Positions 276 to 48,551 of a stretch of 64,000 bases of DNA are shown here, piece by piece (position 1 is the first letter of the stretch; each line of letters starts with the position of its first letter). Both the position numbers and the translations under genes were made by a program. Below the pieces are notes generated by a model, which saw only the letters and a program-made list of their open reading frames with translations, was not told where the DNA came from and did not search any database. The DNA comes from Bacteroidota bacterium (GTDB taxonomy: Bacteria > Bacteroidota > Bacteroidia > AKYH767-A > OLB10), in NCBI GenBank assembly GCA_019136655.1, contig JAGVTU010000003.1, positions 28,098 through 92,097 of the forward strand, given 5' to 3'.

Positions 276-710
276 ATGTTTTCAAAAGCATGTGAGCACG
301 GAATTAAAGCAATTATTTACATAGCCACTCAGTCGCTGCAAGGGCAAAGGGCAAAAATTGGTGATGTGGCAATAAACTCCGGATCTCCCGGAGCTTTCAC
401 TGCAAAAGTTTTAGGTACACTTACCAAGTATAATATTGTTAATTCATATACCGGCCCTACAGGTGGCTTTGATATGTCGGTGAAACAAATGCGGCAGATA
501 AGAATGAGTGATATTGTAAAGATTATTGATGGCGATAATATTTACAATGGTTGCGGATTAGGCCTCAGCGAATGTAATGAATCAAAACCCTGCCCCATGC
601 ATGACAAGTTCAGTAAAGTGAGAGCGGGAATTAAAGATATGCTTACAAAAACTACTGTTTATGACCTTGCCAAAGGATTGCACGAAGGAAAGACAGTGCT
701 GATCAGATAA
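276..710 (+). CDS. Rrf2 family transcriptional regulator (IscR/NsrR-like, with Cys cluster)
   Basis: N-terminal wHTH resembles Rrf2 (HGIKAIIYIA...). A CGLGLSECNESKPC cysteine cluster is typical of Fe-S-binding Rrf2 regulators. It is the first gene of a co-directional, tightly spaced operon. Confidence 0.75.
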   Translation: MFSKACEHGIKAIIYIATQSLQGQRAKIGDVAINSGSPGAFTAKVLGTLTKYNIVNSYTGPTGGFDMSVKQMRQIRMSDIVKIIDGDNIYNGCGLGLSECNESKPCPMHDKFSKVRAGIKDMLTKTTVYDLAKGLHEGKTVLIR

Positions 711-797
711 CGAAGCAAAACTCACTTCTTGGTATTTTGTTCACTAATAAGATAAAAATTAATAAAAGTAAAAAGCAGTATAATTAAGATAAAAAAT

Positions 798-1034
798 ATG
801 GAGAATAAAGAAATCTGGTTACCATCATTAATTACAGCAACACCGCAGGAAGGACGTGAGTTAGCTATTAAAATGGCAAGAAAATCTATAGCTGCTATTC
901 AAACCGATCCGGAAATTAGAAAACAACTCCGCAGCGATTATGCTAATGACACAGCACAACTGATTGCTTCTGCAAATGTGGTGGCTCTCGAGTTTCAAAC
1001 CATTGCAGTTGCCAATAATTACTGGAAAAAATAA
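798..1034 (+). CDS. hypothetical small protein (78 aa)
   Basis: ORF lying between the Rrf2 gene and the truncated hemoglobin gene on the same strand. No motif recognised. Confidence 0.3.
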   Translation: MENKEIWLPSLITATPQEGRELAIKMARKSIAAIQTDPEIRKQLRSDYANDTAQLIASANVVALEFQTIAVANNYWKK

Positions 1035-1068
1035 TTCTCAGAATAAACCGGGTATATCCCTTTTTTAA

Positions 1069-1464
1069 ATGAGTGAGCTCAAAGACATAACATCCATTGA
1101 CGATATCAGAATTCTGGTAGATACTTTTTACGGCAAAATACGTGAAGATGATTTGCTGAAAGATATTTTTAACAATGTCATTCAGGACCGGTGGCCGCAA
1201 CATCTCGAAAAAATGTATCGTTTCTGGCAAACTGTTTTGTTTGACGAACACACTTATTTTGGTGCTCCATTTGTACCGCATGCGCAGCTTCCTGTAGAAA
1301 AACTTCACTTCGACCGTTGGGTGTCTTTATTCAACGAAACAGTTGATCATTTTTTCAGTGGCGAAAAAGCAACCCGCGCCAAATGGCAGGGCAACAGAAT
1401 GGCAGAAATGTTTCTGATGAAAATACAGTATTACAAAAACAACGCTTCAACACCGCTGCAATGA
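1069..1464 (+). CDS. group III truncated hemoglobin (Ctb-like)
   Basis: Aligns by eye along its whole length with Campylobacter Ctb. Shared segments include FY.K.R.D..L..IFNN.I and H..LP......F..W..LF.E. Confidence 0.75.
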   Translation: MSELKDITSIDDIRILVDTFYGKIREDDLLKDIFNNVIQDRWPQHLEKMYRFWQTVLFDEHTYFGAPFVPHAQLPVEKLHFDRWVSLFNETVDHFFSGEKATRAKWQGNRMAEMFLMKIQYYKNNASTPLQ

Positions 1465-1910
1465 AAATAATTAAACATCCGCAAGTGGTAGTTGCCGTTT
1501 TTATATGGATAGGTTTTGTCAGTGCAATAAGTTTTATGGAGTCATGGCTTAAGTTTCTGGCTCCCGGCATCACCATTCCTCTTGGACTCGGTGTTGGCAG
1601 GTTGGTGTTTGTTGCACTCAACAAGGTTGAGTGGGCGCTTGTACTGTTTATTTTAATCAGTTTGTTGTATGCACGCGAAAATATTTTCGTTATTGGGTAT
1701 GCAACATTTCTGATTCCGTTTTTTATTGTAATCATACAGACATTCTGGTTGCTGCCTGCAATGGATGCAAGAGCACAACTTCAGATTGACGGAACTACTG
1801 TTCCTCCTTCTTATCTGCATATTTATTTCGCAGGTTCCGAAGTTATAAAGGCAACCTGTTTGTTTATATTTGGCATCTCACACTTCAAACCTGTTAAAAA
1901 TTATGAGTAA
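1461..1910 (+). CDS. hypothetical 4-TM membrane protein
   Basis: The in-frame ATG at 1461 overlaps the trHb stop codon (ATGA). Four hydrophobic helices are visible. The track ORF at 1383 is probably over-extended at the 5' end. Confidence 0.45.
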   Translation: MKIIKHPQVVVAVFIWIGFVSAISFMESWLKFLAPGITIPLGLGVGRLVFVALNKVEWALVLFILISLLYARENIFVIGYATFLIPFFIVIIQTFWLLPAMDARAQLQIDGTTVPPSYLHIYFAGSEVIKATCLFIFGISHFKPVKNYE

Positions 1911-2808
1911 AGAAAAAATCTTAAACGACATTGATGGAAAATATCAGCAGCTTGGCGAAAATTCTGAAACCTATCTGAAAGGATTGCTTCAGGCAAAACC
2001 CATCACTTACTGGGATTATATTCAGGTGGACACACTGTTTACCCTGCAAAAAACCAGAACGGATTTTAAAGACGAAGCCATCTTTGTGATGTATCATCAG
2101 GTTACTGAATTGGTGTTGAAAATGATGGTGCACGAACTGCAGCAGCTTGTTTTCGAAGACCTGAAAGAAGAAATATGGATGGATAAACTCAACCGCCTCA
2201 ACCGTTATACTTCCATGCTCATTACCTCATTTGATGTGATGAAATTCGGAATGAACTATGACGACTATAATACTTTCCGCAGTACGCTTGCTCCTGCAAG
2301 TGGTTTTCAGTCGGCCACCTTCCGTTATCTCGAAATTTATTGCACACCGCTTGAAAACCTCATTAACGAAGAAGGTAAAAAACGCCTTCCTGCAAATCCA
2401 ACAGTTGAAGATTATTTTGAAAACATCTACTGGAAAGATGCAGGTACCGACAGAAAAACAGGTAAAAAATCTCTTACCCTTCGTTTGTTCGAAGAAAAAT
2501 ATTTGAACAGTTTTATTGAGTTAGCCAAAAAAGTAAAAGGAAATACGCTGGAAGAAAAAATCAAAAAGTTTCAGAATCCTTCAAAAGAATTTATATCAAA
2601 GCTTAAAGAGTTTGATATCATGTACAATGTGAAGTGGCCTATTGTGCATTTGGAAACTGCTCAGCATTACTTAGACAGCAAAGGCGAAAACAAAGCAGCA
2701 ACCGGTGGCAGCGAATGGAAAAAATATCTGCATCCGAAATATCAGCAACGTAAATTTTTCCCGAAACTATATACCCATGATGAAATAGCCCGTTGGGGAG
2801 AAGAGTAA
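1903..2808 (+). CDS. tryptophan 2,3-dioxygenase (TDO) family heme protein
   Basis: YWDYIQVDTLFTLQ and DEAIFVMYHQVTELVLKMMVHEL match the conserved TDO N-terminal helices (YxxYLxLDxLLxxQ / DELLFIxxHQxxELWFK). The ATG at 1903 overlaps the stop codon of the preceding gene. Confidence 0.65.
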   Translation: MSKEKILNDIDGKYQQLGENSETYLKGLLQAKPITYWDYIQVDTLFTLQKTRTDFKDEAIFVMYHQVTELVLKMMVHELQQLVFEDLKEEIWMDKLNRLNRYTSMLITSFDVMKFGMNYDDYNTFRSTLAPASGFQSATFRYLEIYCTPLENLINEEGKKRLPANPTVEDYFENIYWKDAGTDRKTGKKSLTLRLFEEKYLNSFIELAKKVKGNTLEEKIKKFQNPSKEFISKLKEFDIMYNVKWPIVHLETAQHYLDSKGENKAATGGSEWKKYLHPKYQQRKFFPKLYTHDEIARWGEE

Positions 2809-2828
2809 AAACAATTAAATATAATATC

Positions 2829-3599
2829 ATGGAAGTTAAAGATTTTGAAAAAGCACAGGGACACTGGATTCTTGCAAGAATGGGAAAAAGAGTTTTACGT
2901 CCCGGAGGTAAGGAGCTTACTCAAAAATTAGTTTCTGAATTACATATTTCTTCTGATGATGATGTGGTGGAATTTGCACCTGGGTTAGGTTACACAGCTA
3001 CACTTGCATTAAAAGATCATCCGCATTCTTATACCGGTGTGGATGCTGATGAAGATGCAATCAAATCATTAAAACAAAAAGTAAAAGGACAAAATATTCA
3101 GTTTGTTCTTGGCAATGCAGGAAATACCAGTATTGAAAGTAATTCTAAAGATAAAGTTTGGGGTGAAGCCATGCTTACTATGCATGCCGACCATCGCAAA
3201 TCCGAAATCATAAAAGAAGCATACCGCATTCTTAAAAAAGGAGGCCTGTATGCCATACATGAATTAGGGTTGAAGGATGTGAATGAAAATCTTAAAAGTG
3301 AAATTCAGAGAGACCTGGCAGTTACCATAAAAGTAAATGCCCGCCCACTGACAGAGCAGGAATGGAAAAGTTTACTCGAGAAAGAAGGTTTCACAGTCAG
3401 AAAAATTTATACCAATGAAATGTTGTTGCTCGAGACTAAACGTATTCTGGATGATGAAGGATTTTTCAGAACACTGAAGATTGGTTACAACATTCTGGTG
3501 AACTCATCTGCACGTAAACGCATTACAGAGATGAGAAAATCATTCAGAAAACATCAAAAACACATCAATTCAATTGTTCTGATAGCACAAAAAAGTTAA
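2829..3599 (+). CDS. class I SAM-dependent methyltransferase
   Basis: A VVEFAPGLGYTA motif resembling a Rossmann-fold SAM-binding site. The ATG at 2829 is in frame with the track ORF and avoids overlap with the upstream gene. Confidence 0.6.
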   Translation: MEVKDFEKAQGHWILARMGKRVLRPGGKELTQKLVSELHISSDDDVVEFAPGLGYTATLALKDHPHSYTGVDADEDAIKSLKQKVKGQNIQFVLGNAGNTSIESNSKDKVWGEAMLTMHADHRKSEIIKEAYRILKKGGLYAIHELGLKDVNENLKSEIQRDLAVTIKVNARPLTEQEWKSLLEKEGFTVRKIYTNEMLLLETKRILDDEGFFRTLKIGYNILVNSSARKRITEMRKSFRKHQKHINSIVLIAQKS

Positions 3600-3617
3600 T
3601 TTATAAATATCGTACCA

Positions 3618-4343
3618 ATGAGTATTTCAAAAGAAAGTATCATAGGAGAGTTGGTTGCCAATGATTATCGCACCGCTTCTGTTTTTAAAAAACACAACAT
3701 AGACTTTTGCTGCAATGGCAACAGAAGTATTGCAGACGCCTGTGAGAAAAAGAAAATTGACAGCAATGAACTGATACAGCAACTGGAGCAGGCAATAACT
3801 ACGAACAATGCATCGTCTGTTGACTTTAACTCCTGGCCACTCGACTTGCTGGCTGATTACATTGAGAAAAAACATCATCGCTATGTTGAATCCCGTTCGC
3901 AGGAAATAAAACCATTTCTTGATAAAGTAATTCGTGTGCATGGTGACAGACATCCTGAGCTGATTGAAACAGGAAAACTTTTTAACGAGAGCGTTGGAGA
4001 ACTGGCAATGCACATGAAAAAAGAAGAGCTTATGCTGTTCCCCTTCATTCGCAGAATGGTTCAGGCAGAACAAAACGGAACTTCTGTTCAGGCGCCATTC
4101 GGATCGGTGCAAAACCCCATTAAAGCTATGATGCACGACCATGATGGTGAAGGAGAGCGTTTTCGTAAAATTTCCTCTCTTACCAACAACTATAACCCTC
4201 CTGCAGATGCATGTAATACATACAGAGTAACTTATTCGATGTTAAAAGAATTCGAAGAAGACTTACATTTGCACATTCATTTGGAAAATAACATCTTATT
4301 CCCAAAAGCAATTTCAATGGAGGAAAAATTAGCAACAGTTTAA
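3618..4343 (+). CDS. ric: iron-sulfur cluster repair di-iron protein RIC (YtfE/ScdA family)
   Basis: ScdA_N-like N-terminus (DFCCNGNRSI). The C-terminal half carries hemerythrin-like His/Glu-rich cation-binding segments (HH..E, H..E..LFP, HDHDGE, HLHIHLEN). Confidence 0.75.
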   Translation: MSISKESIIGELVANDYRTASVFKKHNIDFCCNGNRSIADACEKKKIDSNELIQQLEQAITTNNASSVDFNSWPLDLLADYIEKKHHRYVESRSQEIKPFLDKVIRVHGDRHPELIETGKLFNESVGELAMHMKKEELMLFPFIRRMVQAEQNGTSVQAPFGSVQNPIKAMMHDHDGEGERFRKISSLTNNYNPPADACNTYRVTYSMLKEFEEDLHLHIHLENNILFPKAISMEEKLATV

Positions 4344-4382
4344 TCAAAATCAATTTATAACAAATTAAAAATTCAATTAAAA

Positions 4383-4901
4383 ATGAAAAAATCAATTTTA
4401 GTTTTTGCATCTGCAGCTATGTTTTTAGCTGCCTGTAGTTCATCAACCGAGCAAAAAAGCACCGAACCTGCTGCTCCTGCCGAAACAACTACTCCTGAAG
4501 CAGCTCCTGCTCCTGCCCCTGCTGAGCCTGCTGTAGTTACTCTTAACGCAGGTGATGATATGAAGTATGACATTACAGAAATTAAAGTTAAAGCGGGACA
4601 AACAGTGAAACTAACACTGCACCACACAGGTAAATTGCCGGTGTCAGGAATGGGCCATAACTTTGTTTTGTTAGCTTCTGGTGTTGACTTGGCTGAGTTT
4701 GCTCAGGCTGCTCTTAAAGCAAAAGACAGTGAGTATATTCCGGCAGATCTGTCAGATGATATTCTTGCTCATACAAAACTTATCGGTGGTGGCGAAACAA
4801 CAGAAATCGAATTTACTGCTCCTGAAAAAGGTACATATGATTACCTGTGTACTTTCCCGGGACACTATGCTATGATGCAAGGTAAATTTATTGTTGAATA
4901 A
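4383..4901 (+). CDS. azu: azurin (type-1 blue copper protein), lipoprotein-type signal
   Basis: Signal peptide with a lipobox Cys, followed by a Pro/Ala-rich linker. Azurin copper-ligand pattern: GMGHNFVL ... CTFPGHYAMMQG (Gly-His ... Cys-x4-His-x3-Met). Overall alignable with Pseudomonas azurin. Confidence 0.8.
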   Translation: MKKSILVFASAAMFLAACSSSTEQKSTEPAAPAETTTPEAAPAPAPAEPAVVTLNAGDDMKYDITEIKVKAGQTVKLTLHHTGKLPVSGMGHNFVLLASGVDLAEFAQAALKAKDSEYIPADLSDDILAHTKLIGGGETTEIEFTAPEKGTYDYLCTFPGHYAMMQGKFIVE

Positions 4902-36945: not shown

Positions 36946-38472
36946 TCAGTTTACTCTGATGTTATCAATTCTTGTTTCTCTGTCGGCATTGTACTGAACG
37001 GTAAGAATCAAGTTTCCATTATCATCATACGTTTTCCAAATACCGTTGCGCATGCCATGTTGGTAGTTTCTTATTTCACGTAATTTTCCATTTTCATTGT
37101 AATAGAGATGTTCTCCTTCTTCCAAACCGTCTGCATATTTACCTGAAAAAGCCTGTTTGCCGTTTCTATAGGTTTGATGCCACATCCCAAATTTTCTTCC
37201 ATCGCGGTATTCACCTTCGGCAATATATTCTCCATTATTATATTTCCACAGTCCCTCTTTATTGCCTTCAATGTATTTTCCGGTGGCTATCAGCTGCAGC
37301 GAATCGTTGTACTCATTCGAGATGCCATTTTCTTTCCCTTTGTCGAATGTTTCATCTCTGCGCAAATTTCCATTTTCAAAATACCATTTCCATTCTCCCT
37401 GCGGCAATCCGTTTTCATAGTTTCCGGTTTGTTGCACACTGTTGTTTTTAAATAAGTATTTCCAGGTACCTGTTTTCTTTCCATTTTTATATTCTCCTTC
37501 GGCACGTAAAGTTCCGTCATCATAAAAATATTTCCACCAACCCTGCCTTTGATAATTATCATCCATCATTCCTTCACCGGCAAGTTTATTATCCTGATAT
37601 AATTTTGCAGATGTTACTTTTCCGTTTTCATCAAAAAATTTTTCTGTACCCTCTTTCTTACCATCAATCACATTTACTATTGATTTGAGTTTTCCATTCG
37701 GGTAAAAGTTTCTTTCAAGTTCCAGCTTAGCGGTATTTTGTTTTTCGACAACAGGTTCTCCGTTTTTATATTTCTCGTTTTTTGTCAGCGTGCCATTCTC
37801 AGAATATTCTTTATAGAAACCATTCAGTTTATCATCAAGATACTGTGCTTCGCTTTTAACCTTTTCGTTTGGATAAAATGTTTTCCATACACCTTGTTTT
37901 AATCCAAACTTATCAATACGGTTTATTCGCTCAACATTTTTTACATATCCTTCGCTGTAATGTGTAATGGTTACAATTCGCCCGTCTTCGGCATATTCTT
38001 TTGCAATACCTTCCTCCACTCCGTTCTTAAACGGTATTTCAGAAATTACTTTTCCATTTTCGCCATATTCCTTAAACCATCCTTCGCGTATATTGTCTTT
38101 TAACTGCTCTTCTGTTTTAAGTTTGCCATCAGCATAAAAAGTACGTTGCAGTCCATTCTTTTTTCCATCAGAATAGTTAAACTCTGAAACAAGTACGCCT
38201 GCATCTGAATAAAATTTCCACAGGCCTTCAGGTTGATTATTTTTTCTTTCACCTTCTGATTTCAGTTTTTCATTTTCATAATATGATTTCCAAATTCCTT
38301 CAGGTTTACCGTTTACAAATTTGCCTTCGCTGCTTTTTTTTCCGTTTGGATAATAAAAAACTTTATATCCATCGGTAATAATGGTATCCGTCTGGCCGAA
38401 GCCTGACATCTGAAAAAGCAAAAACAAAATAATCAGGGAACTTTTATATCCCATATTTAGCCGATATTTCAA
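36946..38472 (-). CDS. MORN-repeat (YwqK family) periplasmic protein
   Basis: Signal peptide. About 20 tandem repeats of about 23 aa with the pattern G.WK.YYENGKLK.EG.YKNGK. Translationally coupled to nadA upstream by a 29-nt overlap, and its stop lies 1 nt before the nadD start codon. Confidence 0.7.
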
Positions 38473-41089: not shown

Positions 41090-41857
41090 CTAAAAATCTT
41101 TCCTGATAAATTTACGGATAGCAGCAATTGTCGGAACAATAATCCACACAATTAATATTGCAAAAATTACAACCGATCCTTTTTGTGAGCCCAAAAACTC
41201 TTTGAACAATGCACCGCTGTAGCCCATTAGTGCAGAGTAATCGGTGTGAATCAAAATTAAAATACGTGAAATATCAACGGGGTTGAACGAACTGAGCACA
41301 ATGATTAATTTTTCAATAGGATAATCGCTGAACTGAAACATGATTAACAGCAGAATACCATCGTAAAGAATTGAAAAAAACAACCAAATGAAAATAGCCA
41401 TACCAATTCCTTTGGCTTTATCTCTGGTAATGACAGAACCAAAAAATGCAAGTGATGTGAAAATAAGCGTGAGCAATGCACCTGTTATAATAAACAACAA
41501 GCCAATTTTATCGGGAGAATAAATTAAAACAGGAATTCCTGCACCTACAATAAATGCAGTAACCAGTGATAATGATACTGCTGCATAAATACTGGTGATT
41601 AATTTTTTTCTGGAAATGGGTTGCGCCACCAGCAGCTCAATAAACTCACCTGAATTGAAAATATAAATGGTGCTGTAAATTAAACTTACCAAAGGCACTA
41701 TAAACAGAATAATATTAAGCAGACTTAAAATACCTTTTGTGGTATTGTTATCCAGATTAAAAATGCCGAAACAGGTTAAAAACAAAAAGAGCAAATAAGT
41801 AAGCACAACCTTACTTTTCAGTATATCAATGGTAACGTACTTGACAATCTTATTCAT
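41090..41857 (-). CDS. nosY: ABC-2 type permease, NosY-like
   Basis: 6-TM permease overlapping the upstream NosF ATPase by 4 nt. Last gene of the nos cluster. Confidence 0.65.
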   Translation of the reverse strand: MNKIVKYVTIDILKSKVVLTYLLFLFLTCFGIFNLDNNTTKGILSLLNIILFIVPLVSLIYSTIYIFNSGEFIELLVAQPISRKKLITSIYAAVSLSLVTAFIVGAGIPVLIYSPDKIGLLFIITGALLTLIFTSLAFFGSVITRDKAKGIGMAIFIWLFFSILYDGILLLIMFQFSDYPIEKLIIVLSSFNPVDISRILILIHTDYSALMGYSGALFKEFLGSQKGSVVIFAILIVWIIVPTIAAIRKFIRKDF

Positions 41858-42561
41858 AAGGTTTTTAAAATTGAAGTAATTACTTTTGAAACAGACTTTT
41901 CACCGGTGCGGTGCTGAAGTTCTTCAATGCCTGAGTGAAACACCAGATTACCTTCGCGCAGATACATTATTTCTGATACCAACTCATCCAACTCACTGAG
42001 TATATGCGAAGTGATGAGAATAATTTTTCCTTTGCTTCGTTCGTGTTTGATTTTTTCTTTCAGTATTTCAGAAGATAAAGGATCAAGGCCGGCAGTAGGT
42101 TCATCCAGAATAATTATTTCAGGAGAAAACAAAAATGCAAGACAGGCACTTACCTTTTGAGTGGTACCACCCGACAGTGTGCCCATACGTTTGGAGAATA
42201 AAGCTTTCAAGCCGAAAGCTTCCATCAGTTCAGTGTCAGCACTGCTCAAGGCTGTTTTTCTTATTTCAAGAATCATATCGAACACCTGCTGAATGGTCAT
42301 ATTCTGTGGATAACGACCTATCTGTGGCATATATCCAATGATGTTGCGGTATTTATAATCTCCTTTGATAGACTGATTGTTTATTTCAATCGTTCCCGAA
42401 TCCGGAATCAGCATTCCGAGCAGACATTTGATAAAAGTAGTTTTGCCGGAAGCGTTAGGACCCAGTAGTGCTACAGAATTACTTTTCTTTATCTGAACAG
42501 AAATATCCTTAAGCACATGCAGCTTACCGAATTTCTTGTTAACGTTTTTTATATCTATCAC
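41854..42561 (-). CDS. nosF: ABC transporter ATP-binding protein, NosF-like
   Basis: Walker A (GPNASGKTT), signature motif LSGGTTQK, Walker B (IILDEP). Sits between nosD and nosY. Confidence 0.8.
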   Translation of the reverse strand: MIDIKNVNKKFGKLHVLKDISVQIKKSNSVALLGPNASGKTTFIKCLLGMLIPDSGTIEINNQSIKGDYKYRNIIGYMPQIGRYPQNMTIQQVFDMILEIRKTALSSADTELMEAFGLKALFSKRMGTLSGGTTQKVSACLAFLFSPEIIILDEPTAGLDPLSSEILKEKIKHERSKGKIILITSHILSELDELVSEIMYLREGNLVFHSGIEELQHRTGEKSVSKVITSILKTL

Positions 42562-43859
42562 ATCTTTACCGGTTTTATCAGAGGAGTGTTGTCAACCAGG
42601 TTTTCAGGAGTGATACTTGGAATGATTTTTTCGCTCTGATCGAGTAGAAAAACTATAAAACTTCTCAAAAATACGGATGCTACGGGAATATTTTCAATGA
42701 CCATGCTGAATAAACTGATTGGGCGGTAAGGAACATCACCAACACCATCACGTTTTAAGTCATAACCATCATATTTATCCCAGAAGTTTCCGTTAAAATT
42801 ATTTAATACAAGGCTTCCATTGGTTGCAACATCAAATGTGTTTTCAAAAAAATTATTGTTGTTAACATTATTGTTATTACAACTTGCCTGTATGCGGATG
42901 GCATATCCATTTCTCAGAAATTTATTGTTGGTTACATCTATTCTGTTAGTACCTTCCAGATAAATACCAATGGTATTTTGTTCAAAAACATTATCTCTGA
43001 TGATACCGTCATTTATTTCTTTCAGTAGCAGCCCATATGTAGATTCACCCTGATTAAACAGAAAGTGATTCTTAAACATGTGGATATTATTTGAAAACAT
43101 TACTGCCACACCTGCACCATTTTTTTCGAATGTATTGTTAATGTATTCATCGTTGTTTGAAAACATAAAGTGTAACCCATAACGAATGTTACTCTTGCAA
43201 TAATTATCAGTGATGGTGGAATGTTGAACAAATTCAAAATAAATACCATCCCGATGACCCGTAATATTGTTATTTGCTATTTTAGCATAACTGTTCTTCC
43301 AGAGATGAATGCCATTTCCGGTTGTTTGTTCGTCATTACCCGGAACACCTCTTATCTGGTTGTATGTAATACTAAAATTGTCGCATCCTGCAATGTAAAT
43401 GGCAAAATGTGTATTAAGAATGGTATTTTTTGTAATTAAGAACTGACGGCTGTCAATTACTTTAATGGCGGCTAGATCTTTTAATGACGAAAATCCTGAA
43501 TACTGAAATGTAAGTCCTGAGACAACCACACCGGCAACATCTTTTATAGTAAGAATTTCATAAGTGCCCTCACCATCCAGCACCGGATTGTTTTTACCCA
43601 GAAGGGTAATTTTTTTCTTTATTACAATATTTTTTTCTTTGTAAATACCGCCATTTACCACAATGGTATCTCCATCTTTGGCAATGTCAACAGCATTTTT
43701 TATGGTGGTTATTTTATCACGGCCCGAAACGTTGATCACTTCTGCATGAAGTGGCAACATGAAAAATAAAAAAACAACAGAAAAGAAAAGACAGCGTATC
43801 CAACTAAGGAAATGCAGCCAAAACCTTTTCCCAATTACAAATTTCTCCACCGTATTCAT
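42558..43859 (-). CDS. nosD: nitrous oxide reductase maturation protein NosD (periplasmic right-handed beta-helix)
   Basis: Repeated parallel-beta-helix units (N.I....GI.L). Size and position match NosD. Confidence 0.8.
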   Translation of the reverse strand: MNTVEKFVIGKRFWLHFLSWIRCLFFSVVFLFFMLPLHAEVINVSGRDKITTIKNAVDIAKDGDTIVVNGGIYKEKNIVIKKKITLLGKNNPVLDGEGTYEILTIKDVAGVVVSGLTFQYSGFSSLKDLAAIKVIDSRQFLITKNTILNTHFAIYIAGCDNFSITYNQIRGVPGNDEQTTGNGIHLWKNSYAKIANNNITGHRDGIYFEFVQHSTITDNYCKSNIRYGLHFMFSNNDEYINNTFEKNGAGVAVMFSNNIHMFKNHFLFNQGESTYGLLLKEINDGIIRDNVFEQNTIGIYLEGTNRIDVTNNKFLRNGYAIRIQASCNNNNVNNNNFFENTFDVATNGSLVLNNFNGNFWDKYDGYDLKRDGVGDVPYRPISLFSMVIENIPVASVFLRSFIVFLLDQSEKIIPSITPENLVDNTPLIKPVKM

Positions 43860-44235
43860 TTAAAAGCTTCCGAGCGTTTTCTTCTGATGAAAAAGCAGCA
43901 AACCCACTATTCATCGGAGTGCGAATATCGGCACTTTTCAGAAAAACGGCATTTGCTGCTTCTAACAAATCAGTCTTATCAAAATAATTTACAACTAAAA
44001 CATGACTATACTGTACTTCTTTATTTTCAGGCAAAGCTTTCCACTGTATCATGCAGTTTACATCGTCAAACTTATAAATACGGCCTTTATTGGTAATCAA
44101 CTCTGCACCAAAACGTGTATCTGCTACAGGCATTTTACAGTGATGGCAACTGTCTTTTCCGGCAACAAGGGGTTCCGGTTTCTGCGCACAAGAGGTAAAT
44201 ACCAATACAAATAACAGCAAGAACAATTTTTTCAT
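43804..44235 (-). CDS. nosL: copper chaperone lipoprotein NosL
   Basis: Lipoprotein signal (FTSC). CHHCKMPV metal-binding motif. 143 aa, immediately upstream of nosD. Confidence 0.6.
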   Translation of the reverse strand: MKKLFLLLFVLVFTSCAQKPEPLVAGKDSCHHCKMPVADTRFGAELITNKGRIYKFDDVNCMIQWKALPENKEVQYSHVLVVNYFDKTDLLEAANAVFLKSADIRTPMNSGFAAFSSEENARKLLNEYGGEICNWEKVLAAFP

Positions 44236-44813
44236 TACGCTGCTTTATGTTTTCGCCATTCGATAAACCAAACAACAGCCGCAATGACTACAGAGCCTGC
44301 AACAATATAACCTCCCAAATCGGGCATTGAAAATGCATCAAAATTCAACAATTGTTTATGACCAATAATTGGAGGCTGATACGACATGCCCGGAACCTGA
44401 ATAGGAGCATCAGGGCTCAGGTTATGTCCATAGTCGTAAGTCCACTGATAAAAATCGTACATTGCTAAAACACCTCCTAATGCAGAAACAATCAGGTAGC
44501 TGAATAAGAGTTTGCGACTTCCGGTAATTGCAACCAGCAAACCATAAATAATGAATGCCGCTACAATATAAACAAGGTATGAAAATTCCGGAAACATATC
44601 AACACTTATTTTTTTCATTCCGATATAATGATTCAAACCATTGATGATATCAACATCACCGGTAAGTTTATTAAACCATATATTCATCATTAACCCTTCC
44701 GGATATTGTGGCGCGAACAAATCTATCCGCCAGATAGGAGTGAAATAAGAAATAATAATAGCTAAAGAACATAAAGCGATTATTACTCTGGAAAGGCCAC
44801 TTAGCTTTTGCAT
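44235..44813 (-). CDS. 4-TM membrane protein, NosB-like
   Basis: Integral membrane protein in the slot that NosB occupies in clade-II nos clusters. Confidence 0.4.
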   Translation of the reverse strand: MQKLSGLSRVIIALCSLAIIISYFTPIWRIDLFAPQYPEGLMMNIWFNKLTGDVDIINGLNHYIGMKKISVDMFPEFSYLVYIVAAFIIYGLLVAITGSRKLLFSYLIVSALGGVLAMYDFYQWTYDYGHNLSPDAPIQVPGMSYQPPIIGHKQLLNFDAFSMPDLGGYIVAGSVVIAAVVWFIEWRKHKAA

Positions 44814-44836
44814 ATAAAGGATGTTATTTTGAATTA

Positions 44837-45406
44837 TTAATTACCGGGAGGTAGCAATACGGCATCTACAACATGAATAATACCATTTGCTGCTGGAATA
44901 GTGGCTATTATATTTGCCTGATTATTTACCATTATCTTTCCATCTTTAACAGAAAGGCTAATGTTTTTTGAATTAGCCTGATTGATACTTTGTCCATCAG
45001 AGAACATTTCAGGCTTAAATACTCCAACAGAAACATGGTACTCCAATATATCCTGAAGCTTTGCTTTGTTTTCTGGTTTCATAAGGTCTTCCACAGTTCC
45101 TTTTGGTAATTTATTGAAAGCATCGTTGGTGGGTGCAAATACAGTAAATGGTCCTGCATTTGATAATACTGTTACCAGTTCAGCCTGTTTGAGCGCAGCT
45201 ACCAATGTTGAATGGTCAGCCGAACCAACGGCAATTTTAACAACATCTTTTTGAGAATCATTATCCTGAACCGCTTCTTGTCCTCCTGCAGGAGATTCCT
45301 GAGCAGTGGTGCTTTCACCGTTTGTTTTATTTTCAGCTGCGGGAGGGTTGCATGCATATACCAATGCTGCAATCATTACTAAATAAAATAATTTATACTT
45401 TCTCAT
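44837..45406 (-). CDS. fasciclin (FAS1) domain lipoprotein
   Basis: Lipoprotein signal (VYAC). FAS1 motifs TVFAPTNDAF and HVVDAVLLP. Confidence 0.75.
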   Translation of the reverse strand: MRKYKLFYLVMIAALVYACNPPAAENKTNGESTTAQESPAGGQEAVQDNDSQKDVVKIAVGSADHSTLVAALKQAELVTVLSNAGPFTVFAPTNDAFNKLPKGTVEDLMKPENKAKLQDILEYHVSVGVFKPEMFSDGQSINQANSKNISLSVKDGKIMVNNQANIIATIPAANGIIHVVDAVLLPPGN

Positions 45407-45469
45407 TGTGTTTTGGTATTATTCGCCTCATTGCTATGTTAACATAGCAATGAGGCGAAGGTTTATTAA

Positions 45470-47461
45470 TTATAGTTTATCATCTTCAGATTTTGGCTGA
45501 TTAGTTCCTGTGCTGAAATGTAAAGGAACATTGTTATTAGGAGCACTGATTCGGATATAACCTTGCATTTCCTGATGCAAAGCTGAACAGAAGTCGGTAC
45601 AATAAATTGGATAAACACCAACTTTCTCAGGCTTCCAAACAAGTGTTTGTGTTTCGCCCGGCATAATAAGCAATTCAGCATTGTTAGCACCCTTTACAGC
45701 AAACCCATGTGGTACGTCCCAATCTTGTTCCAAATTAGTAACGTGGAAGTAAACTACATCACCCAACTTCACGCCTTCAATGTTATCAGGAGTAAGATGT
45801 GAGCGTATTGCAGTCATATAAATATGCACTTCGTTGCCTTTACGTTCAACTTTGGCTTCTTTATCGCCCATGGTTACATAAGGATGTTTATTTTCTTCAA
45901 TTTTATAAAACTTAACAGAGTTCTTCGACACTATATCAGCAGGAATTGCTTCAGCGTAGTGAGGCTCGCCTATAGTTGGGAAGTCAAGTATCATTTTCAT
46001 TTTGTCACCACTGATATCATACAACTGAGCACTCTGACATAATTCAGGTCCTGTTGGCAGATAACGGTCTTTGGTAATTTTGTTGTAAGCTATTAGATAT
46101 TTACCCCATGGCTTTTTGGTAGGCCCACCGGGTACACTCAGGTGTCCAACAGAGTAATAAGTAGGAGCACGATCTAATACCTGAAGGTCGCTCACACGCC
46201 ACTTAACAACTTCAGAAGATACGAACATAGAAGTATAAGCATTACCGTTAGCATCAAACTCTGTGTGCAATGGTCCTAAGCCAGGTTTTTTAACTTCACC
46301 ATGTAATACGGCATCATATTTTAACACCGGAATACCCGCATAGTCACCTTCAAATGTTTTCTTATCTATAGCATCCAGCATTTTAGTGAATGAGAACACA
46401 GGAATAACTGCAGCAAGTTTTCCACTACCTACAATATATTCTCCTGTTGGGTCGGTATCACATCCATGCGGGTTTTTGGGACAAGGCATGAAATAAACCA
46501 TGTCAGGACAATCTTTTGGGTCGAGCATAATCACTTCTTTCTCCATTACTGAAGTTGCAGTATGAGTATGTTCGTCAAAGGTATTGTGAGCATAATTTAC
46601 ACTTTTCTTAATACCTTTTCCGGCTTTTACATATTCTTCTGCTTTTTTCCAGTTAACAGCCATAATGAAGTCTTTATCATTTTTGGCAGAGTTTACTTCA
46701 AGAAGTGTGTTTGCTCTTTCTGTATTATAACAACTTACAAAAAACCATCCGTGAGATTTTCCTTTTCCTGCTCTTGCCAGGTCAAAGTCAACACCCGGTA
46801 ACAGAATCTGAAATGCAAGGTTCATTTTACCTGTTTCTTTATCAACACCGATTAAGCTAATGGTAGCTTTAAAGTTATCTTTATACGTATTGATAGGCAC
46901 ATCATTATTATTATCAGACATTGGCACGGCAAAACGAGTTCCTGCAATAACATACTCTGAATTCTCTGTAATAAATGGAGAGGAGTGGTTACCTGCACTG
47001 TTAGGAATTTCAATAATTTCAGCCGTTTTGAAAGACTTCATATCAATTCTTGCAATACGCGGAGTATTGTTTCCGTTTCCAAAAGCCCATCTTCCATCAT
47101 GCACACCATCAGTCTCTGATAAGGCAATATGATGTAAGTCGTCCCAAGGAACAAATCCATGAGAAGTGTTGAGCATAGGCTTTGTTTCTTCGCTGTAACC
47201 GTAGCCTTTTTCTGGATCTACAGAAAATACAGGGATAACTCTAAAAAGCCTTCCTGAAGGAATACCATAAACTGACATTTGGCCGCTGAAACCTCCGGAA
47301 ACGAAGTTGTAAAACTCATCGTATTTTCCGGGAGCCACATAAACCTTTTGAGCAGCGTCTCCTGACGTAGTAGTACTTACGTTTTTGGGTTTACAGGAGA
47401 AGACGGTTGTTGCAAACGCTATTGCAAGCAGCGATAACGTTTTTAATTCTGATTGTCTCAT
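45470..47461 (-). CDS. nosZ: nitrous-oxide reductase NosZ, Sec-dependent (clade II)
   Basis: Sec/lipoprotein-type signal, not Tat. Seven-bladed propeller region with His-rich CuZ ligand segments. C-terminal cupredoxin CuA site CTDFCSALHQEM (C-x2-FC-x3-H-x2-M). Confidence 0.9.
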   Translation of the reverse strand: MRQSELKTLSLLAIAFATTVFSCKPKNVSTTTSGDAAQKVYVAPGKYDEFYNFVSGGFSGQMSVYGIPSGRLFRVIPVFSVDPEKGYGYSEETKPMLNTSHGFVPWDDLHHIALSETDGVHDGRWAFGNGNNTPRIARIDMKSFKTAEIIEIPNSAGNHSSPFITENSEYVIAGTRFAVPMSDNNNDVPINTYKDNFKATISLIGVDKETGKMNLAFQILLPGVDFDLARAGKGKSHGWFFVSCYNTERANTLLEVNSAKNDKDFIMAVNWKKAEEYVKAGKGIKKSVNYAHNTFDEHTHTATSVMEKEVIMLDPKDCPDMVYFMPCPKNPHGCDTDPTGEYIVGSGKLAAVIPVFSFTKMLDAIDKKTFEGDYAGIPVLKYDAVLHGEVKKPGLGPLHTEFDANGNAYTSMFVSSEVVKWRVSDLQVLDRAPTYYSVGHLSVPGGPTKKPWGKYLIAYNKITKDRYLPTGPELCQSAQLYDISGDKMKMILDFPTIGEPHYAEAIPADIVSKNSVKFYKIEENKHPYVTMGDKEAKVERKGNEVHIYMTAIRSHLTPDNIEGVKLGDVVYFHVTNLEQDWDVPHGFAVKGANNAELLIMPGETQTLVWKPEKVGVYPIYCTDFCSALHQEMQGYIRISAPNNNVPLHFSTGTNQPKSEDDKL

Positions 47462-47489
47462 ATTATATTTATATATTTAATTCCTAAAT

Positions 47490-47984
47490 TTATTTTACTC
47501 CGTCATTTTCGCGCATAAACTCATACACATGACGGGCATCATCATCTGTCAATCCCTGATTGGGCATACGCACCAAGCATTCCTCTAATAAACCCTGTGC
47601 AATTGCATCGGTATCGAGCATTTCATCAGGATTTGTAGAGAAGTTCATAATCCACTCTGCAGTACGTTTTTTAGTAACATCTTTCCATCCCGGTCCAACA
47701 AGCTTTTCGTCTGTGAGACGGTGACAGGCAGAACATTTTACATCATAAATTTTCTTTCCGGCATCTGCCATTTGTTTATCAAGGGTAGGACTTACTTCAA
47801 CATTTGTAAATTTACCTACACCTTTATTTTCATCCGAAGCTTGTACTTCTTCGGCTTCTTTTACCAACTCTTTTGAATCAGTTGGTTCTTCTTTTTTTTG
47901 TTCGTTGCTTCCACAAGCATAAAATGCTATGATTGCAGTAAGAACAACCATGGTTTTAAGTGTTAAATTTTTAATGGATTTCAT
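47490..47984 (-). CDS. mono-heme c-type cytochrome (nos-associated)
   Basis: Signal peptide. A single CSACH heme-binding motif. Immediately upstream of nosZ, as in clade-II clusters. Confidence 0.75.
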   Translation of the reverse strand: MKSIKNLTLKTMVVLTAIIAFYACGSNEQKKEEPTDSKELVKEAEEVQASDENKGVGKFTNVEVSPTLDKQMADAGKKIYDVKCSACHRLTDEKLVGPGWKDVTKKRTAEWIMNFSTNPDEMLDTDAIAQGLLEECLVRMPNQGLTDDDARHVYEFMRENDGVK

Positions 47985-48056
47985 ATTTAATCTGATTTAT
48001 ATTAATGACGGTACAAAAGTAAAAAAGAGATTAAGTGCGCACATATATAACAAGGA

Positions 48057-48090
48057 TGATAATTATCAACAAATAATTTGATAATTATCT
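48057..48090 (-). promoter_or_regulatory. two tandem copies of the 12-bp palindrome TGATAATTATCA (second copy 11/12), 22 bp centre to centre, upstream of the cytochrome c-nosZ operon
   Basis: 48057-48068 is TGATAATTATCA, a perfect palindrome. 48079-48090 is TGATAATTATCT. On the minus strand a Bacteroidota -7 box TACTTTTG (48014-48021) lies about 30 nt upstream of the cytochrome c ATG. The palindromes sit about 35-75 nt upstream of that box. Confidence 0.5.
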
Positions 48091-48170
48091 GATTGCACAC
48101 CCCCAATACATCCTAAATGACCGATTTTGAAGTATTCAAAAAATATTGAACAAAATGCAGCTATTTTTCA

Positions 48171-48551
48171 CTAACAACTAATACGGTAAACAATCCATGT
48201 ATAAAAGAAAGACAACACCAATGAACCAACAACAAGTATTGTAGCTCTTACAACATCTTTTTTATGGCAATGATGGTCGTCCACATTTTCAAGATTACCC
48301 AATTCTTTAAAATTATATAGACTGAAAAACGCAAAAAGGATACAAAACCGGGTAAGAACTTCAATGAATAAAACGATGGTTGCAAAAGTGGCAATCATCA
48401 ATAAAACGGCCAACCACTTAGCACAGGCCAAACGCACTGCAATGGTCAGCAATACGGAAATAAAAAGAAATAAGAACAGGAATTTCTGCCTTACCCTAAC
48501 TTCTTTTTCGCCTATATTACAACATCCTGCAAGATAGCCTTTGTCCGACAT
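48171..48551 (-). CDS. hypothetical small membrane protein (possibly DUF2892-like)
   Basis: Two or three TM helices. N-terminal NIGEKEVRVRQ weakly resembles the YgaP/DUF2892 NIGxxDRxxR motif. CC and HHCH cysteine/histidine clusters. Confidence 0.35.
   Translation of the reverse strand: MSDKGYLAGCCNIGEKEVRVRQKFLFLFLFISVLLTIAVRLACAKWLAVLLMIATFATIVLFIEVLTRFCILFAFFSLYNFKELGNLENVDDHHCHKKDVVRATILVVGSLVLSFFYTWIVYRISC

What the first reader, a model, noticed from the sequence alone, without database searches (positions are those of the whole stretch)
41090..48551. Complete clade-II (Sec-type) nos cluster with non-canonical inserts
The order on the minus strand is small membrane protein, cytochrome c, nosZ (Sec signal, CuA CTDFCSALHQEM), FAS1-domain lipoprotein, NosB-like 4-TM protein, nosL, nosD, nosF, nosY. 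The fasciclin protein sits between nosZ and the NosB-like gene. The small Cys/His-rich membrane protein (48171-48551) is upstream of the cytochrome c gene. I do not know either of these as an established nos gene. Azurin, a potential electron donor, is encoded 37 kb away in the NO-stress operon.
Basis: partly seen in the sequence, partly recalled or inferred. Interest (0 to 1): 0.5.

Follow-up and report, generated by a model that had tools for sequence, protein, structure and literature searches.

The report
Fasciclin lipoprotein gene in nos operon
This is an ordinary, complete nitrous-oxide-reductase operon of a Bacteroidota bacterium, but the fasciclin-domain lipoprotein gene inside it is a widely conserved, co-regulated and apparently undescribed companion of these operons, whereas the small membrane protein upstream is only a chance neighbour.

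Summary
NosZ is a Sec-dependent clade II enzyme (TIGR04246, 928 bits). The "NosB-like" gene is canonical NosB: it has four TM helices and the motifs LNHYIGM and YGHN. The small Cys/His membrane protein is not a nos gene. It is absent from 80 related nos loci. Its few homologues sit next to an M28 peptidase gene, with or without nos.

The fasciclin gene is the real finding. An orthologue lies beside nos in 58 of 66 informative NosZ-selected loci. Of 80 loci selected only by fasciclin similarity, 75 carry nos genes. It occupies six different positions relative to the nos genes. When it is transcribed separately it carries the same 16-bp Crp/Fnr-type palindrome, at the same distance from the start codon, as the nos promoter.

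In Flavobacterium the gene sits in a Crp/Fnr–membrane protein–fasciclin unit. In two of five such loci that unit adjoins nirK/nor, with no nos gene within 10 kb. It therefore follows the N-oxide respiration regulon, not nosZ strictly.

I found no paper linking fasciclin to nos. The function is inferred: most likely a membrane-tethered periplasmic adaptor for the lipoprotein NosZ/cytochrome c module.

The parts
48056..48091 (-). Two FNR/CRP-type boxes (cAGATAATTATCAA at 48091-48078 and TTGATAATTATCAt at 48069-48056) in the 186-bp gap upstream of the cytochrome c gene. This is the predicted operator of the nos promoter.
   Evidence: Sequence read. Close relatives L001-L029 carry two TGA-N6-TCA boxes at the same place. 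More distant relatives carry one 16-bp palindrome, TATGAY-N4-RYCATA, centred at a median of -69.
48014..48033 (-). Candidate Bacteroidota-type -7 promoter boxes: TAATCTCT at 48033-48026 and TACTTTTG at 48021-48014.
   Evidence: Sequence read. The same TAnnTTTG-like element follows the operator by about 21-23 nt in related loci. Assigning it as a promoter is inference; the sigma-70 scan was uninformative.
47490..47984 (-). Monohaem c-type cytochrome lipoprotein (164 aa, CSACH). First gene of the operon and presumed electron donor to NosZ.
   Evidence: PF00034, E 2.7e-9. It lies upstream of nosZ on the same strand in 99 of the related loci that have at least 200 bp of usable upstream sequence. 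All 103 orthologues have an N-terminal Cys.
45470..47461 (-). nosZ, a clade II Sec-dependent nitrous-oxide reductase with a lipoprotein-type signal (…TVFSC-KPK) and the CuA motif CTDFCSALHQEM.
   Evidence: TIGR04246 at 928 bits, cut-off 625. PF18764. A lipobox Cys is present in 116 of 116 orthologues.
45422..45459 (-). Perfect 17-bp stem, 4-nt loop hairpin just after the nosZ stop codon, with no U-tract. Probably an attenuator or mRNA 3'-end stabiliser that sets NosZ expression above that of the accessory genes.
   Evidence: A strong hairpin after nosZ is general in related loci, whichever gene follows: median best dG about -20, against about -9 for shuffled sequence.
44837..45406 (-). Fasciclin (FAS1) lipoprotein of 189 aa: signal peptide plus lipobox (LVYAC), a disordered linker of about 20-40 residues, a conserved GQ..V.D..S.K segment and one canonical FAS1 domain. 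This is the conserved non-canonical member.
   Evidence: PF02469, E 4e-34. Synteny. Shared operator. Conservation and absence of Cys in the mature part. AF2 model. Fold matches.
44235..44813 (-). nosB, a 192-aa protein with four TM helices, carrying the NosB motifs LNHYIGM and YGHN.
   Evidence: Translation. Motifs and the flavobacterial NosB assignment come from PMC9697520. An orthologue lies between nosZ (or fas) and nosL in essentially all related loci.
43804..44235 (-). nosL, the copper chaperone lipoprotein.
   Evidence: PF05573, E 3e-15.
42558..43859 (-). nosD, the periplasmic beta-helix maturation protein. The ORF as listed overlaps nosL by 56 nt, so the true start may be later.
   Evidence: TIGR04247 at 395 bits, cut-off 300.
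41854..42561 (-). nosF, the ABC ATPase.
   Evidence: PF00005. Conserved position.
41090..41857 (-). nosY, the ABC-2 permease.
   Evidence: PF12679. Conserved position.
48171..48551 (-). Small Cys/His-rich membrane protein. Listed only to exclude it: it is a flanking gene of the M28 peptidase neighbourhood, not a nos gene.
   Evidence: No homologue in 80 nos loci by tblastn or phmmer --max. Only 10 homologues in the 5.8-billion-protein collection. In L081-L083 it lies divergent from the M28 peptidase gene and is followed by YceI, with no nos genes.

Best explanation
The region is a complete Bacteroidota-type clade II nos operon: cytochrome c, nosZ, fas, nosB, nosL, nosD, nosF, nosY. It is transcribed from a promoter in the 186-bp gap upstream of the cytochrome c gene. 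That promoter carries two FNR/CRP-type boxes. A hairpin after nosZ separates the structural genes from the accessory genes.

The fasciclin gene is a genuine, conserved and co-regulated component of N-oxide respiration in Bacteroidota. It is usually built into the nos operon. Elsewhere it is a separate gene under the same Crp/Fnr-type operator. I rate this statement at about 0.85.

The most likely mechanism is inferred, and I rate it at about 0.3-0.35. The protein would be a membrane-tethered periplasmic FAS1 adaptor. It would dock to the NosZ / cytochrome c module, or to NosB, and would stabilise or position NosZ during copper-site maturation or electron transfer. NosZ and the cytochrome c are themselves predicted lipoproteins here. 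The comparison is with CupS, a FAS1 protein that is an accessory subunit of cyanobacterial NDH-1MS, and with the small proteins NosP/NosQ, which bind and protect clade I NosZ.

NosB is canonical. The small membrane protein upstream is a chance neighbour.
For: Gene identities.

Forward synteny. Of 80 loci chosen by NosZ similarity (72-83% identity, several Bacteroidota orders), 58 carry a fasciclin orthologue (47-68% identity) within 2.8 kb of the nos genes. Only 8 loci with at least 2.5 kb beyond both ends of the cluster lack it. No second FAS1 hit occurs anywhere in the 1.33 Mb searched.

Reverse synteny. Of 80 metagenome loci chosen only by fasciclin similarity, 75 carry nos genes.

Six placements were seen: nosZ-fas-nosB, cytc-fas-nosZ, nosD-fas-nosF, nosY-fas, nosY-(globin)-fas convergent, and fas divergent from cytc. 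The linkage therefore survived at least five rearrangements.

Co-regulation. A palindrome derived from the cytochrome c upstream regions (TATGAY-N4-RYCATA) occurs upstream of cytc in 39-45 of 105 loci. It occurs upstream of separately transcribed fas in 12-18 of 23 loci, and upstream of in-operon fas in 0 of 102. It is essentially absent upstream of nosZ, nosB, nosL, nosD, nosF and nosY. Its centre lies at a median of -69 from the ATG for both cytc and fas. Background is 0.007-0.011 per 160 bp, and the binomial P is 1.6e-20. All five Flavobacterium loci also have it upstream of fas.

Orthology of in-operon and separate copies: mean divergence 0.42 between the two classes against 0.37 within them, in line with the other Nos proteins. 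Distances correlate with NosZ distances at r = 0.54, against 0.61 for NosF.

Predicted lipoproteins: NosZ 116 of 116, cytochrome c 103 of 103, Fas 113 of 131.

Structural precedent: the closest solved bacterial relatives are Fdp (101 bits, 42% identity) and the NDH-1MS subunit CupS (84 bits, 41% identity, TM 0.81).

Precedent for lineage-specific NosZ-binding accessories: NosP/NosQ.

Exclusion of the small membrane protein.
Against: There is no direct evidence of any physical or functional interaction.

The mature fasciclin protein has no Cys and no evident metal-binding motif, so a copper-chaperone role has no support.

About 12% of well-covered nos loci have no fasciclin gene nearby.

Two orthologues with 8 kb of flank on each side have no nos neighbour (L119, L126).

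In two of five Flavobacterium loci the Crp/Fnr-membrane protein-fas unit adjoins nirK/nor genes, with no nos within 10 kb. This argues that the role may not be specific to NosZ.

The loci are phylogenetically related, so the counts overstate the number of independent observations.

The broader operator pattern was widened (TGTG half-site) after I had seen the fas upstream regions. The strict pattern derived from cytc still gives 12 of 23.

The promoter and operator assignments are sequence inference only.
Confidence: 0.6

Rival explanations
1. The fasciclin lipoprotein is a general envelope component of the Crp/Fnr-controlled N-oxide or low-oxygen regulon. It might work with the co-transcribed ~410-aa membrane protein, or with NirK/Nor. 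Its position inside nos operons would then reflect co-regulation rather than a NosZ-specific job.
For: In all five Flavobacterium loci fas follows a Crp/Fnr gene and a conserved ~410-aa polytopic membrane protein. In L167 and L170 this unit adjoins Rrf2-norCB-nirK-SCO1-norQD, with no nos within 10 kb. The same operator precedes the regulator gene, the ~410-aa membrane protein gene, RIC genes and a nor gene. L119 has the operator but no nos nearby.
Against: In more than 100 loci fas lies inside the nos operon at four different internal positions, including between nosD and nosF. It was never found inside a nir or nor operon in the material examined. Whether the L167 and L170 genomes have nos elsewhere is unknown.
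Confidence: 0.28
2. The FAS1 domain binds a hydrophobic isoprenoid ligand (carotenoid, flexirubin or menaquinone), as the AstaP fasciclin proteins bind astaxanthin. It would then serve quinone or pigment handling during anaerobic respiration.
For: Astaxanthin-binding fasciclin proteins are among the solved relatives (8c18, 22iy, 9wm8). L119 places a fas orthologue next to an MqnC/CofH-like radical SAM gene.
Against: Similarity to AstaP is the weakest among the FAS1 hits: 47 bits and 27-29% identity, against 41-43% for CupS and Fdp. No ligand-site comparison was possible. There is no recurrent linkage to pigment or quinone genes.
Confidence: 0.07
3. The fasciclin gene is a passively inherited hitchhiker with no functional tie to N-oxide respiration (for example an adhesin).
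For: Characterised bacterial FAS1 proteins such as Fdp are adhesion proteins. That is my own knowledge; the molecule names are. Some nos clusters lack the gene.
Against: The gene occupies six different placements while staying linked to nos. Linkage in the reverse direction is 75 of 80. The shared operator sits at the same distance when the gene is transcribed separately. There are no other FAS1 genes in 1.33 Mb of flanking DNA.
Confidence: 0.03
4. The small Cys/His membrane protein at 48171-48551 is an additional nos gene co-transcribed with the operon, as the first reader suggested might be the case.
For: It lies on the same strand, 186 bp upstream. No terminator-like site was found between it and the cytochrome c gene. 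The layout is shared by close relatives (76% identity, L084/L085).
Against: It is absent from all 80 related nos loci. Its more distant homologues keep the M28 peptidase neighbour but are followed by YceI, not nos. The predicted operator and promoter lie downstream of it.
Confidence: 0.04

Closest known systems
Clade II (Sec-dependent) nos gene clusters of Bacteroidota, e.g. Flavobacterium cytc-nosZ-nosB-nosL-nosD-nosF-nosY (PMC9697520)
   Same: The gene set and order match. NosZ is the TIGR04246 type. NosB has the LNHYIGM and YGHN motifs. There is no nosR or nosX, and a monohaem cytochrome c gene lies upstream.
   Different: A fasciclin lipoprotein gene lies between nosZ and nosB. Published descriptions that I could search do not mention it.
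CupS, the FAS1-fold subunit of the cyanobacterial NDH-1MS CO2-uptake complex (PDB 6TJV chain Q, 2MXA)
   Same: It is a single FAS1 domain of similar size. It shares 41-42% identity, 84 bits and TM-score 0.81 with the model. It is a small accessory protein attached to a membrane-bound energy-converting complex that handles a small gas-like substrate (this last point is my own knowledge).
   Different: CupS is cytoplasmic and not lipidated, and it belongs to a different complex. No interaction partner is shown here.
NosP/NosQ, lineage-specific small accessory proteins of clade I nos clusters (bioRxiv 10.64898/2025.12.16.694761)
   Same: These are extra genes embedded in nos clusters of a restricted lineage. 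They were shown to bind NosZ and protect its maturation, which is the kind of role proposed here.
   Different: They are unrelated in sequence and fold, have no signal peptide, occur in clade I Proteobacteria and are needed specifically at low pH.
Fdp, the fasciclin I domain protein of Rhodobacter sphaeroides (PDB 1W7D/1W7E)
   Same: It is the closest solved single-domain bacterial relative (101 bits, 42-43% identity).
   Different: Fdp is described as an adhesion protein with no link to denitrification genes (my own knowledge). It has no lipoprotein anchor or linker.
NosB, the clade II-specific polytopic membrane protein (Hein et al. 2017, cited in PMC9697520)
   Same: It is a clade-restricted accessory gene placed directly after nosZ, essential in Wolinella, and its mechanism is still unknown.
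   Different: NosB is an integral membrane protein present in nearly all clade II clusters. The fasciclin protein is a soluble-domain lipoprotein, seen here only in Bacteroidota, and is not always inside the operon.

Membership tests
Clade II Sec-dependent NosZ | Scores above the curated cut-off of the Sec-dependent NosZ model and better than on the Tat-type model | tested here: met
   TIGR04246 at 928 bits (cut-off 625), against 354 bits for TIGR04244.
Clade II Sec-dependent NosZ | Sec-type rather than twin-arginine signal peptide | tested here: met
   The N-terminus MRQSELKTLSLLAIAFATTVFSC-KPK has no RR motif and has a lipobox-type Cys. No signal-peptide predictor was run.
Clade II Sec-dependent NosZ | CuA-binding motif C-x2-F-C-x3-H-x-E-M in the C-terminal cupredoxin domain | tested here: met
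   CTDFCSALHQEM is in the translation. There is a weak cupredoxin hit.
Clade II nos cluster | nosB present; nosR and nosX absent from the cluster | tested here: met
   NosB was identified. None of the nine products has a NosR- or NosX-type family hit.
NosB | Polytopic membrane protein with the conserved stretches LNHYIGM and YGHN, encoded between nosZ and nosL/nosD | tested here: met
   Both motifs are in the 192-aa product. Four hydrophobic segments were read by eye from the translation. The motif definition is from PMC9697520. The product is 47-72% identical to the gene at this position in related loci. No Pfam or NCBIfam model exists to score it.
Fasciclin / FAS1 domain (PF02469) | Matches the Pfam model above its gathering score and adopts the FAS1 fold | tested here: met
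   117.9 bits against a cut-off of 22. AF2 model with pLDDT about 80 in the domain. All top Foldseek PDB matches are FAS1 domains.
nos accessory gene (operational definition) | Conserved linkage to nosZ across divergent genomes and gene orders | tested here: met
   58 of 66 informative loci in the forward direction, 75 of 80 in the reverse direction, and six placements. Exceptions: L119, L126, L167, L170.
nos accessory gene (operational definition) | Co-regulated with nosZ | tested here: inconclusive
   The same predicted operator lies at the same distance upstream of cytc-nosZ and of separately transcribed fas. This is sequence prediction only, with no expression data.
nos accessory gene (operational definition) | Required for N2O reduction or NosZ maturation | not testable with these tools
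   This needs a deletion mutant and N2O kinetics.
CupS-like accessory subunit of a membrane complex | Stable binding to a partner subunit of the complex | not testable with these tools
   Only the fold and 41% identity are shown. No multimer prediction or biochemistry was available.
Small membrane protein as a nos gene | Conserved linkage to nos clusters | tested here: not met
   0 of 80 nos loci contain a homologue. Homologues in L082 and L083 lie next to the M28 peptidase and YceI genes without nos.
Azurin (TIGR02695), for the cupredoxin at 4383-4901 | Scores above the curated equivalog cut-off | tested here: not met
   103.8 bits against a cut-off of 105.1. It is azurin-like but marginally below threshold. 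PF00127 is clearly met.

The most novel reading that the evidence does not exclude
The fasciclin lipoprotein is an unrecognised, functionally required nos-system protein of Bacteroidota. It would be a tethered subunit or assembly factor that binds lipoprotein NosZ (with its cytochrome c and/or NosB) and determines whether these abundant, mostly non-denitrifying N2O reducers make active enzyme. That would make it a new nos gene, comparable in status to NosB or NosP/Q.
Probability: 0.3. Interest if true: 0.7.

Novelty: new variant of a known kind. Interest (0 to 1): 0.55.

Why it matters
Bacteroidota with clade II NosZ are among the most abundant N2O sinks in soils and wastewater, and they are candidates for N2O-mitigation inoculants. 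How their minimal nos clusters receive electrons and mature a Sec-exported, apparently lipid-anchored NosZ is unresolved. Even NosB has no known mechanism.

A conserved, co-regulated and uncharacterised lipoprotein sits in or beside most of these clusters. That gives a concrete, cheaply testable candidate, and several cultured carriers are available for a deletion.

The shared operator also defines a candidate Crp/Fnr regulon in this phylum: the nos operon, fas, a ~410-aa membrane protein, RIC and nor. This could improve prediction of when nosZ is expressed.

If the gene proves dispensable, the result is still useful. It would show that nos-cluster membership alone over-predicts function.

Tried and rejected
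1. The sigma-70 promoter and terminator scan gave 32 sites against 31.5 expected. It is uninformative because Bacteroidota use other promoter elements. Only the hairpin after nosZ was useful.

2. The classical FNR box TTGAT-N4-ATCAA with at most one mismatch was found upstream of cytc in only 17 of 103 loci. I replaced it with a motif found by k-mer enrichment.

3. The exhaustive representative search with the Fas profile was swamped by multi-FAS1 repeat proteins: 33,559 representatives at E<1e-3. It gave no subfamily boundary and no informative fusions.

4. P0112, a two-family hit that looked like a possible fusion, is just a multi-FAS1 fragment.

5. A copper-chaperone role for Fas has no support: no Cys in the mature part and no Met/His cluster.

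6. My first guess was that the ~410-aa membrane protein behind the operator is NnrS. Pfam and NCBIfam did not support it, with no hits.

7. I tested whether the presence of Fas correlates with NosZ being a lipoprotein. It cannot, because all NosZ orthologues have the lipobox.

8. The window has no Crp/Fnr regulator or ~410-aa membrane protein gene within its 64 kb.

9. The look-up of P0310 returned nothing.

10. Five literature searches that included the word fasciclin, paired with nosZ, nitrous oxide reductase, denitrification, nos-cluster terms or nitrous oxide, returned only unrelated papers.

Full report
**Observation.**
- Family scans identify a monohaem cytochrome c (PF00034).
- They also identify a single-domain fasciclin protein (PF02469, E 4e-34), NosL (PF05573), NosD (TIGR04247, 395 bits), an ABC ATPase and an ABC-2 permease.
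- The CuA motif CTDFCSALHQEM is in the NosZ translation.
- Two products have no family hit: the 126-aa membrane protein (6 Cys, DDHHCH) and the 192-aa four-TM protein.
- Spacing is operon-like: gaps of 28, 63 and 23 bp, then overlaps. The exception is the 186 bp between the 126-aa gene and the cytochrome c gene.

**The NosB-like gene is NosB.** A study of Flavobacterium nos clusters (PMC9697520) shows that the "hypothetical protein" between nosZ and nosL in flavobacteria is NosB. That paper gives two conserved NosB stretches, LNHYIGM and YGHN. Both are present in the window's 192-aa product. An orthologue at 44-75% identity occupies this position in essentially all related loci. It is the canonical clade II accessory gene, not an insert.

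**The small membrane protein is not a nos gene.**
- Neither tblastn nor phmmer with filters off finds a homologue in any of 80 related nos loci.
- The 5.8-billion-protein collection holds only 10 homologues.
- Only close relatives share the window's layout (76% identity, L084/L085).
- At 52-54% identity the gene is still divergent from the same M28 peptidase gene. In L082 and L083 it is followed by a YceI gene instead of cytochrome c and nos.
- Its conserved partner is therefore the flanking backbone, next to which the nos cluster happens to lie in this lineage.
- The predicted nos operator and promoter lie downstream of it.

**The fasciclin gene: forward synteny.** I fetched 80 loci from one-genome-per-species contigs by NosZ similarity (72-83% identity). 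They include Chitinophagaceae, Saprospiraceae, Flavobacterium, Sphingobacteriales, Cytophagales-like MAGs and several isolates.
- A fasciclin orthologue at 47-68% identity lies within 2.8 kb of the nos genes in 58 loci.
- Of the other 22 loci, 14 are cut too short to judge. Only 8 have at least 2.5 kb beyond both ends of the cluster and still lack the gene.
- No second FAS1 hit occurs anywhere in the 1.33 Mb of these loci. The background density of such genes is therefore very low.

**Reverse synteny.** I fetched 80 metagenome loci by similarity to the fasciclin protein alone (56-97% identity). Of these, 75 carry nos genes beside it. Three of the five exceptions are short contigs. Two have 8 kb on each side without nos (L119, L126). 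Their neighbours are unrelated genes.

**Placements.** The gene is found in six arrangements:
- nosZ-fas-nosB, as in the window. This is the commonest.
- cytc-fas-nosZ.
- nosD-fas-nosF.
- nosY-fas on the same strand.
- After nosY on the opposite strand, usually behind a small globin-like gene.
- Once, divergent from cytc.

Linkage thus survived at least five rearrangements, including insertions into the core of the maturation operon. In-operon and separately placed copies are orthologues. Their mean divergence is 0.42 between the classes and 0.37 within them, which parallels NosZ, NosB and NosD. Fas distances correlate with NosZ distances at r = 0.54, compared with NosF 0.61, NosY 0.68, NosB 0.78 and NosD 0.80.

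**Co-regulation.** K-mer enrichment in the 200 bp upstream of the cytochrome c genes, followed by inspection, revealed a 16-bp palindrome, TATGAY-N4-RYCATA. Its core is TGA-N6-TCA, as in FNR/CRP sites. It is followed about 21 nt later by a TAnnTTTG-like element.
- With a pattern taken strictly from the cytc sites, background is 0.007 per 160 bp.
- That pattern occurs upstream of cytc in 39 of 105 loci, upstream of in-operon fas in 0 of 102, and upstream of opposite-strand (separately transcribed) fas in 12 of 23. The binomial P is 1.6e-20, ignoring relatedness.
- A slightly wider pattern allows a TGTG half-site. I added that after seeing the fas regions. It gives 45 of 105 for cytc and 18 of 23 for opposite-strand fas. 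It gives 0-1 hits each upstream of nosZ, nosB, nosL, nosD, nosF and nosY.
- The site centre is at a median of -69 from the ATG for both cytc and fas.
- The other genes behind this site are a Crp/Fnr-family regulator (22 cases), a conserved ~410-aa polytopic membrane protein (15 cases) and DUF2249/ScdA/hemerythrin RIC proteins (10 cases).
- The window and its closest relatives instead carry two TGA-N6-TCA boxes upstream of cytc. In the window these are cAGATAATTATCAA and TTGATAATTATCAt, at 48091-48056.

**Flavobacterium.** I ran a second reverse test from the F. cucumis orthologue and obtained five usable look-ups.
- All five show a unit of Crp/Fnr regulator, ~410-aa membrane protein and fas. 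In each, fas has its own copy of the operator about 60 bp upstream.
- In two loci (L166, L168) the unit is convergent with the nos operon.
- In one locus (L169) nos lies 6 kb away, behind nor, NrdD, RIC and a globin gene.
- In two loci (L167, L170) the unit adjoins Rrf2-norCB-nirK-SCO1-norQD, with no nos within 10 kb.
- The gene therefore tracks the N-oxide respiration island and regulon, and not nosZ in every genome. This is the main reason I do not call it NosZ-specific with confidence.

**The protein.** I compared 131 distinct orthologues.
- They share a signal peptide with a lipobox Cys (113 of 131 match a permissive pattern), a low-complexity linker, an invariant GQ..V.D..S.K segment and the canonical FAS1 motifs.
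- There is no Cys at all in the mature part, so a copper-chaperone role has no support.
- AF2 gives a confident FAS1 domain (pLDDT about 80) and a disordered linker over residues 20-61.
- The closest solved bacterial relatives are Fdp of Rhodobacter sphaeroides (101 bits, 42-43% identity) and CupS, the FAS1 subunit of cyanobacterial NDH-1MS (84 bits, 41-42% identity, TM 0.81).
- Further relatives are phycobilisome linker proteins, MPT70 and the astaxanthin-binding AstaP proteins.
- All 116 NosZ orthologues carry a lipobox-type Cys followed by KPK or KPN. All 103 cytochrome c orthologues have an N-terminal Cys, and NosL is a known lipoprotein. The electron donor, the enzyme, the copper chaperone and the fasciclin protein are thus all predicted to be lipid-anchored in the periplasm.

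**Hairpin.** The perfect 17-bp hairpin at 45422-45459, between nosZ and fas, does not mark fas as a separate unit. A strong hairpin follows nosZ in related loci regardless of the next gene. The median best dG is -20.6 with fas next (n = 91), -20.8 with fas elsewhere (n = 34) and -18.3 without fas (n = 21), against about -9 for shuffled sequence. It lacks a U-tract. I read it as an attenuator or 3'-end stabiliser that sets NosZ expression above that of the accessory genes. This is inference.

**Mechanism.**
- Shown: conserved linkage in both directions, multiple placements, a shared predicted operator, the lipoprotein architecture and the FAS1 fold.
- Inferred: the protein is a tethered protein-protein adaptor acting on the NosZ/cytochrome c/NosB module during maturation or electron transfer.
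- The precedents are CupS, a FAS1 accessory subunit of a membrane complex, and NosP/NosQ. The latter are lineage-specific small proteins encoded in clade I nos clusters that bind NosZ and protect its maturation.
- I put about 0.85 on "genuine co-regulated component of N-oxide respiration" and about 0.3 on the NosZ-adaptor mechanism.
- The main rival, at about 0.28, is a regulon-wide envelope role not specific to NosZ.

**Novelty.** Five full-text searches that included the word fasciclin, paired with nosZ, nitrous oxide reductase, denitrification, nos-cluster terms or nitrous oxide, found no paper connecting them. Two papers that analyse Bacteroidota nos clusters do not mention it. Subscription-only literature was not searchable. 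The cluster itself is a known kind. The conserved fasciclin member and the shared operator are, as far as I could determine, undescribed.

**Verdict.** This is a known system with one real, conserved, untested extra component, one mislabelled canonical gene (NosB) and one chance neighbour (the small membrane protein).

Noticed in passing
window 47390-47461 (NosZ N-terminus); L001-L165: All 116 NosZ orthologues examined carry a lipobox-type Cys followed by KPK or KPN. All 103 upstream cytochrome c proteins have an N-terminal Cys. NosZ and its donor are therefore predicted lipoproteins throughout this Bacteroidota group, not soluble periplasmic proteins.
   Followed up: partly
L042:15824-16219; L035:14085-14459; L168:11093-11467: A 124-131-aa globin-like gene (PF01152 Bac_globin, just above the cut-off) follows nosY directly in 22 of the 34 loci that have it. 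Often it sits between nosY and a convergent fas gene. The window lacks it.
   Followed up: partly
L032:7348-8568; L168:8683-9912: A conserved ~410-aa polytopic membrane protein with His-rich motifs (HSHFAFAGW, YLHFQYNGW) lies behind the same operator. It has no Pfam or NCBIfam hit. In Flavobacterium it is placed between a Crp/Fnr gene and fas. The two examples are 49% identical. My guess that it is NnrS was not supported.
   Followed up: partly
L001-L029, about 40-70 nt upstream of the cytochrome c start: A conserved stem-loop, AAAAGACA-N5-TGTCTTTT, lies in the presumed 5' leader of the nos operon in the window's nearer relatives. The window itself does not have it.
   Followed up: no
window 276-4901: A gene group runs from an Rrf2-family regulator (276-710) to a RIC iron-sulfur repair protein (3618-4343, TIGR03652, 256 bits) and an azurin-like cupredoxin (4383-4901, 103.8 bits against a cut-off of 105.1). 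It also contains a tryptophan-dioxygenase-like gene and a methyltransferase gene.
   Followed up: partly
window 48171-48551; L081-L085: The small membrane protein belongs to a very small family: 10 clusters in 5.8 billion proteins. Members have N-terminal GCCN and DDHHCH motifs and are always divergent from an M28 peptidase gene. Function unknown.
   Followed up: partly
L166:4496-7975; L167-L170, same relative position: In the Flavobacterium N-oxide islands a conserved trio is divergent from the Crp/Fnr gene. It comprises a 125-129-aa protein, a YtkA-like protein of about 270-300 aa, and a 663-673-aa protein with a weak TonB Plug hit. The operator lies in the shared intergenic region.
   Followed up: no
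window 37550-37561: A 12-mer identical to the nos operator box (TGATAATTATCA) lies inside the 508-aa repeat-protein ORF at 36946-38472. The pattern TGAT-N4-ATCA occurs 3 times in the window against about 2 expected, so this is probably chance.
   Followed up: no
L119:6644-8465: One fas orthologue without nos neighbours still carries the operator at -69. It follows an MqnC/CofH-like radical SAM gene.
   Followed up: no
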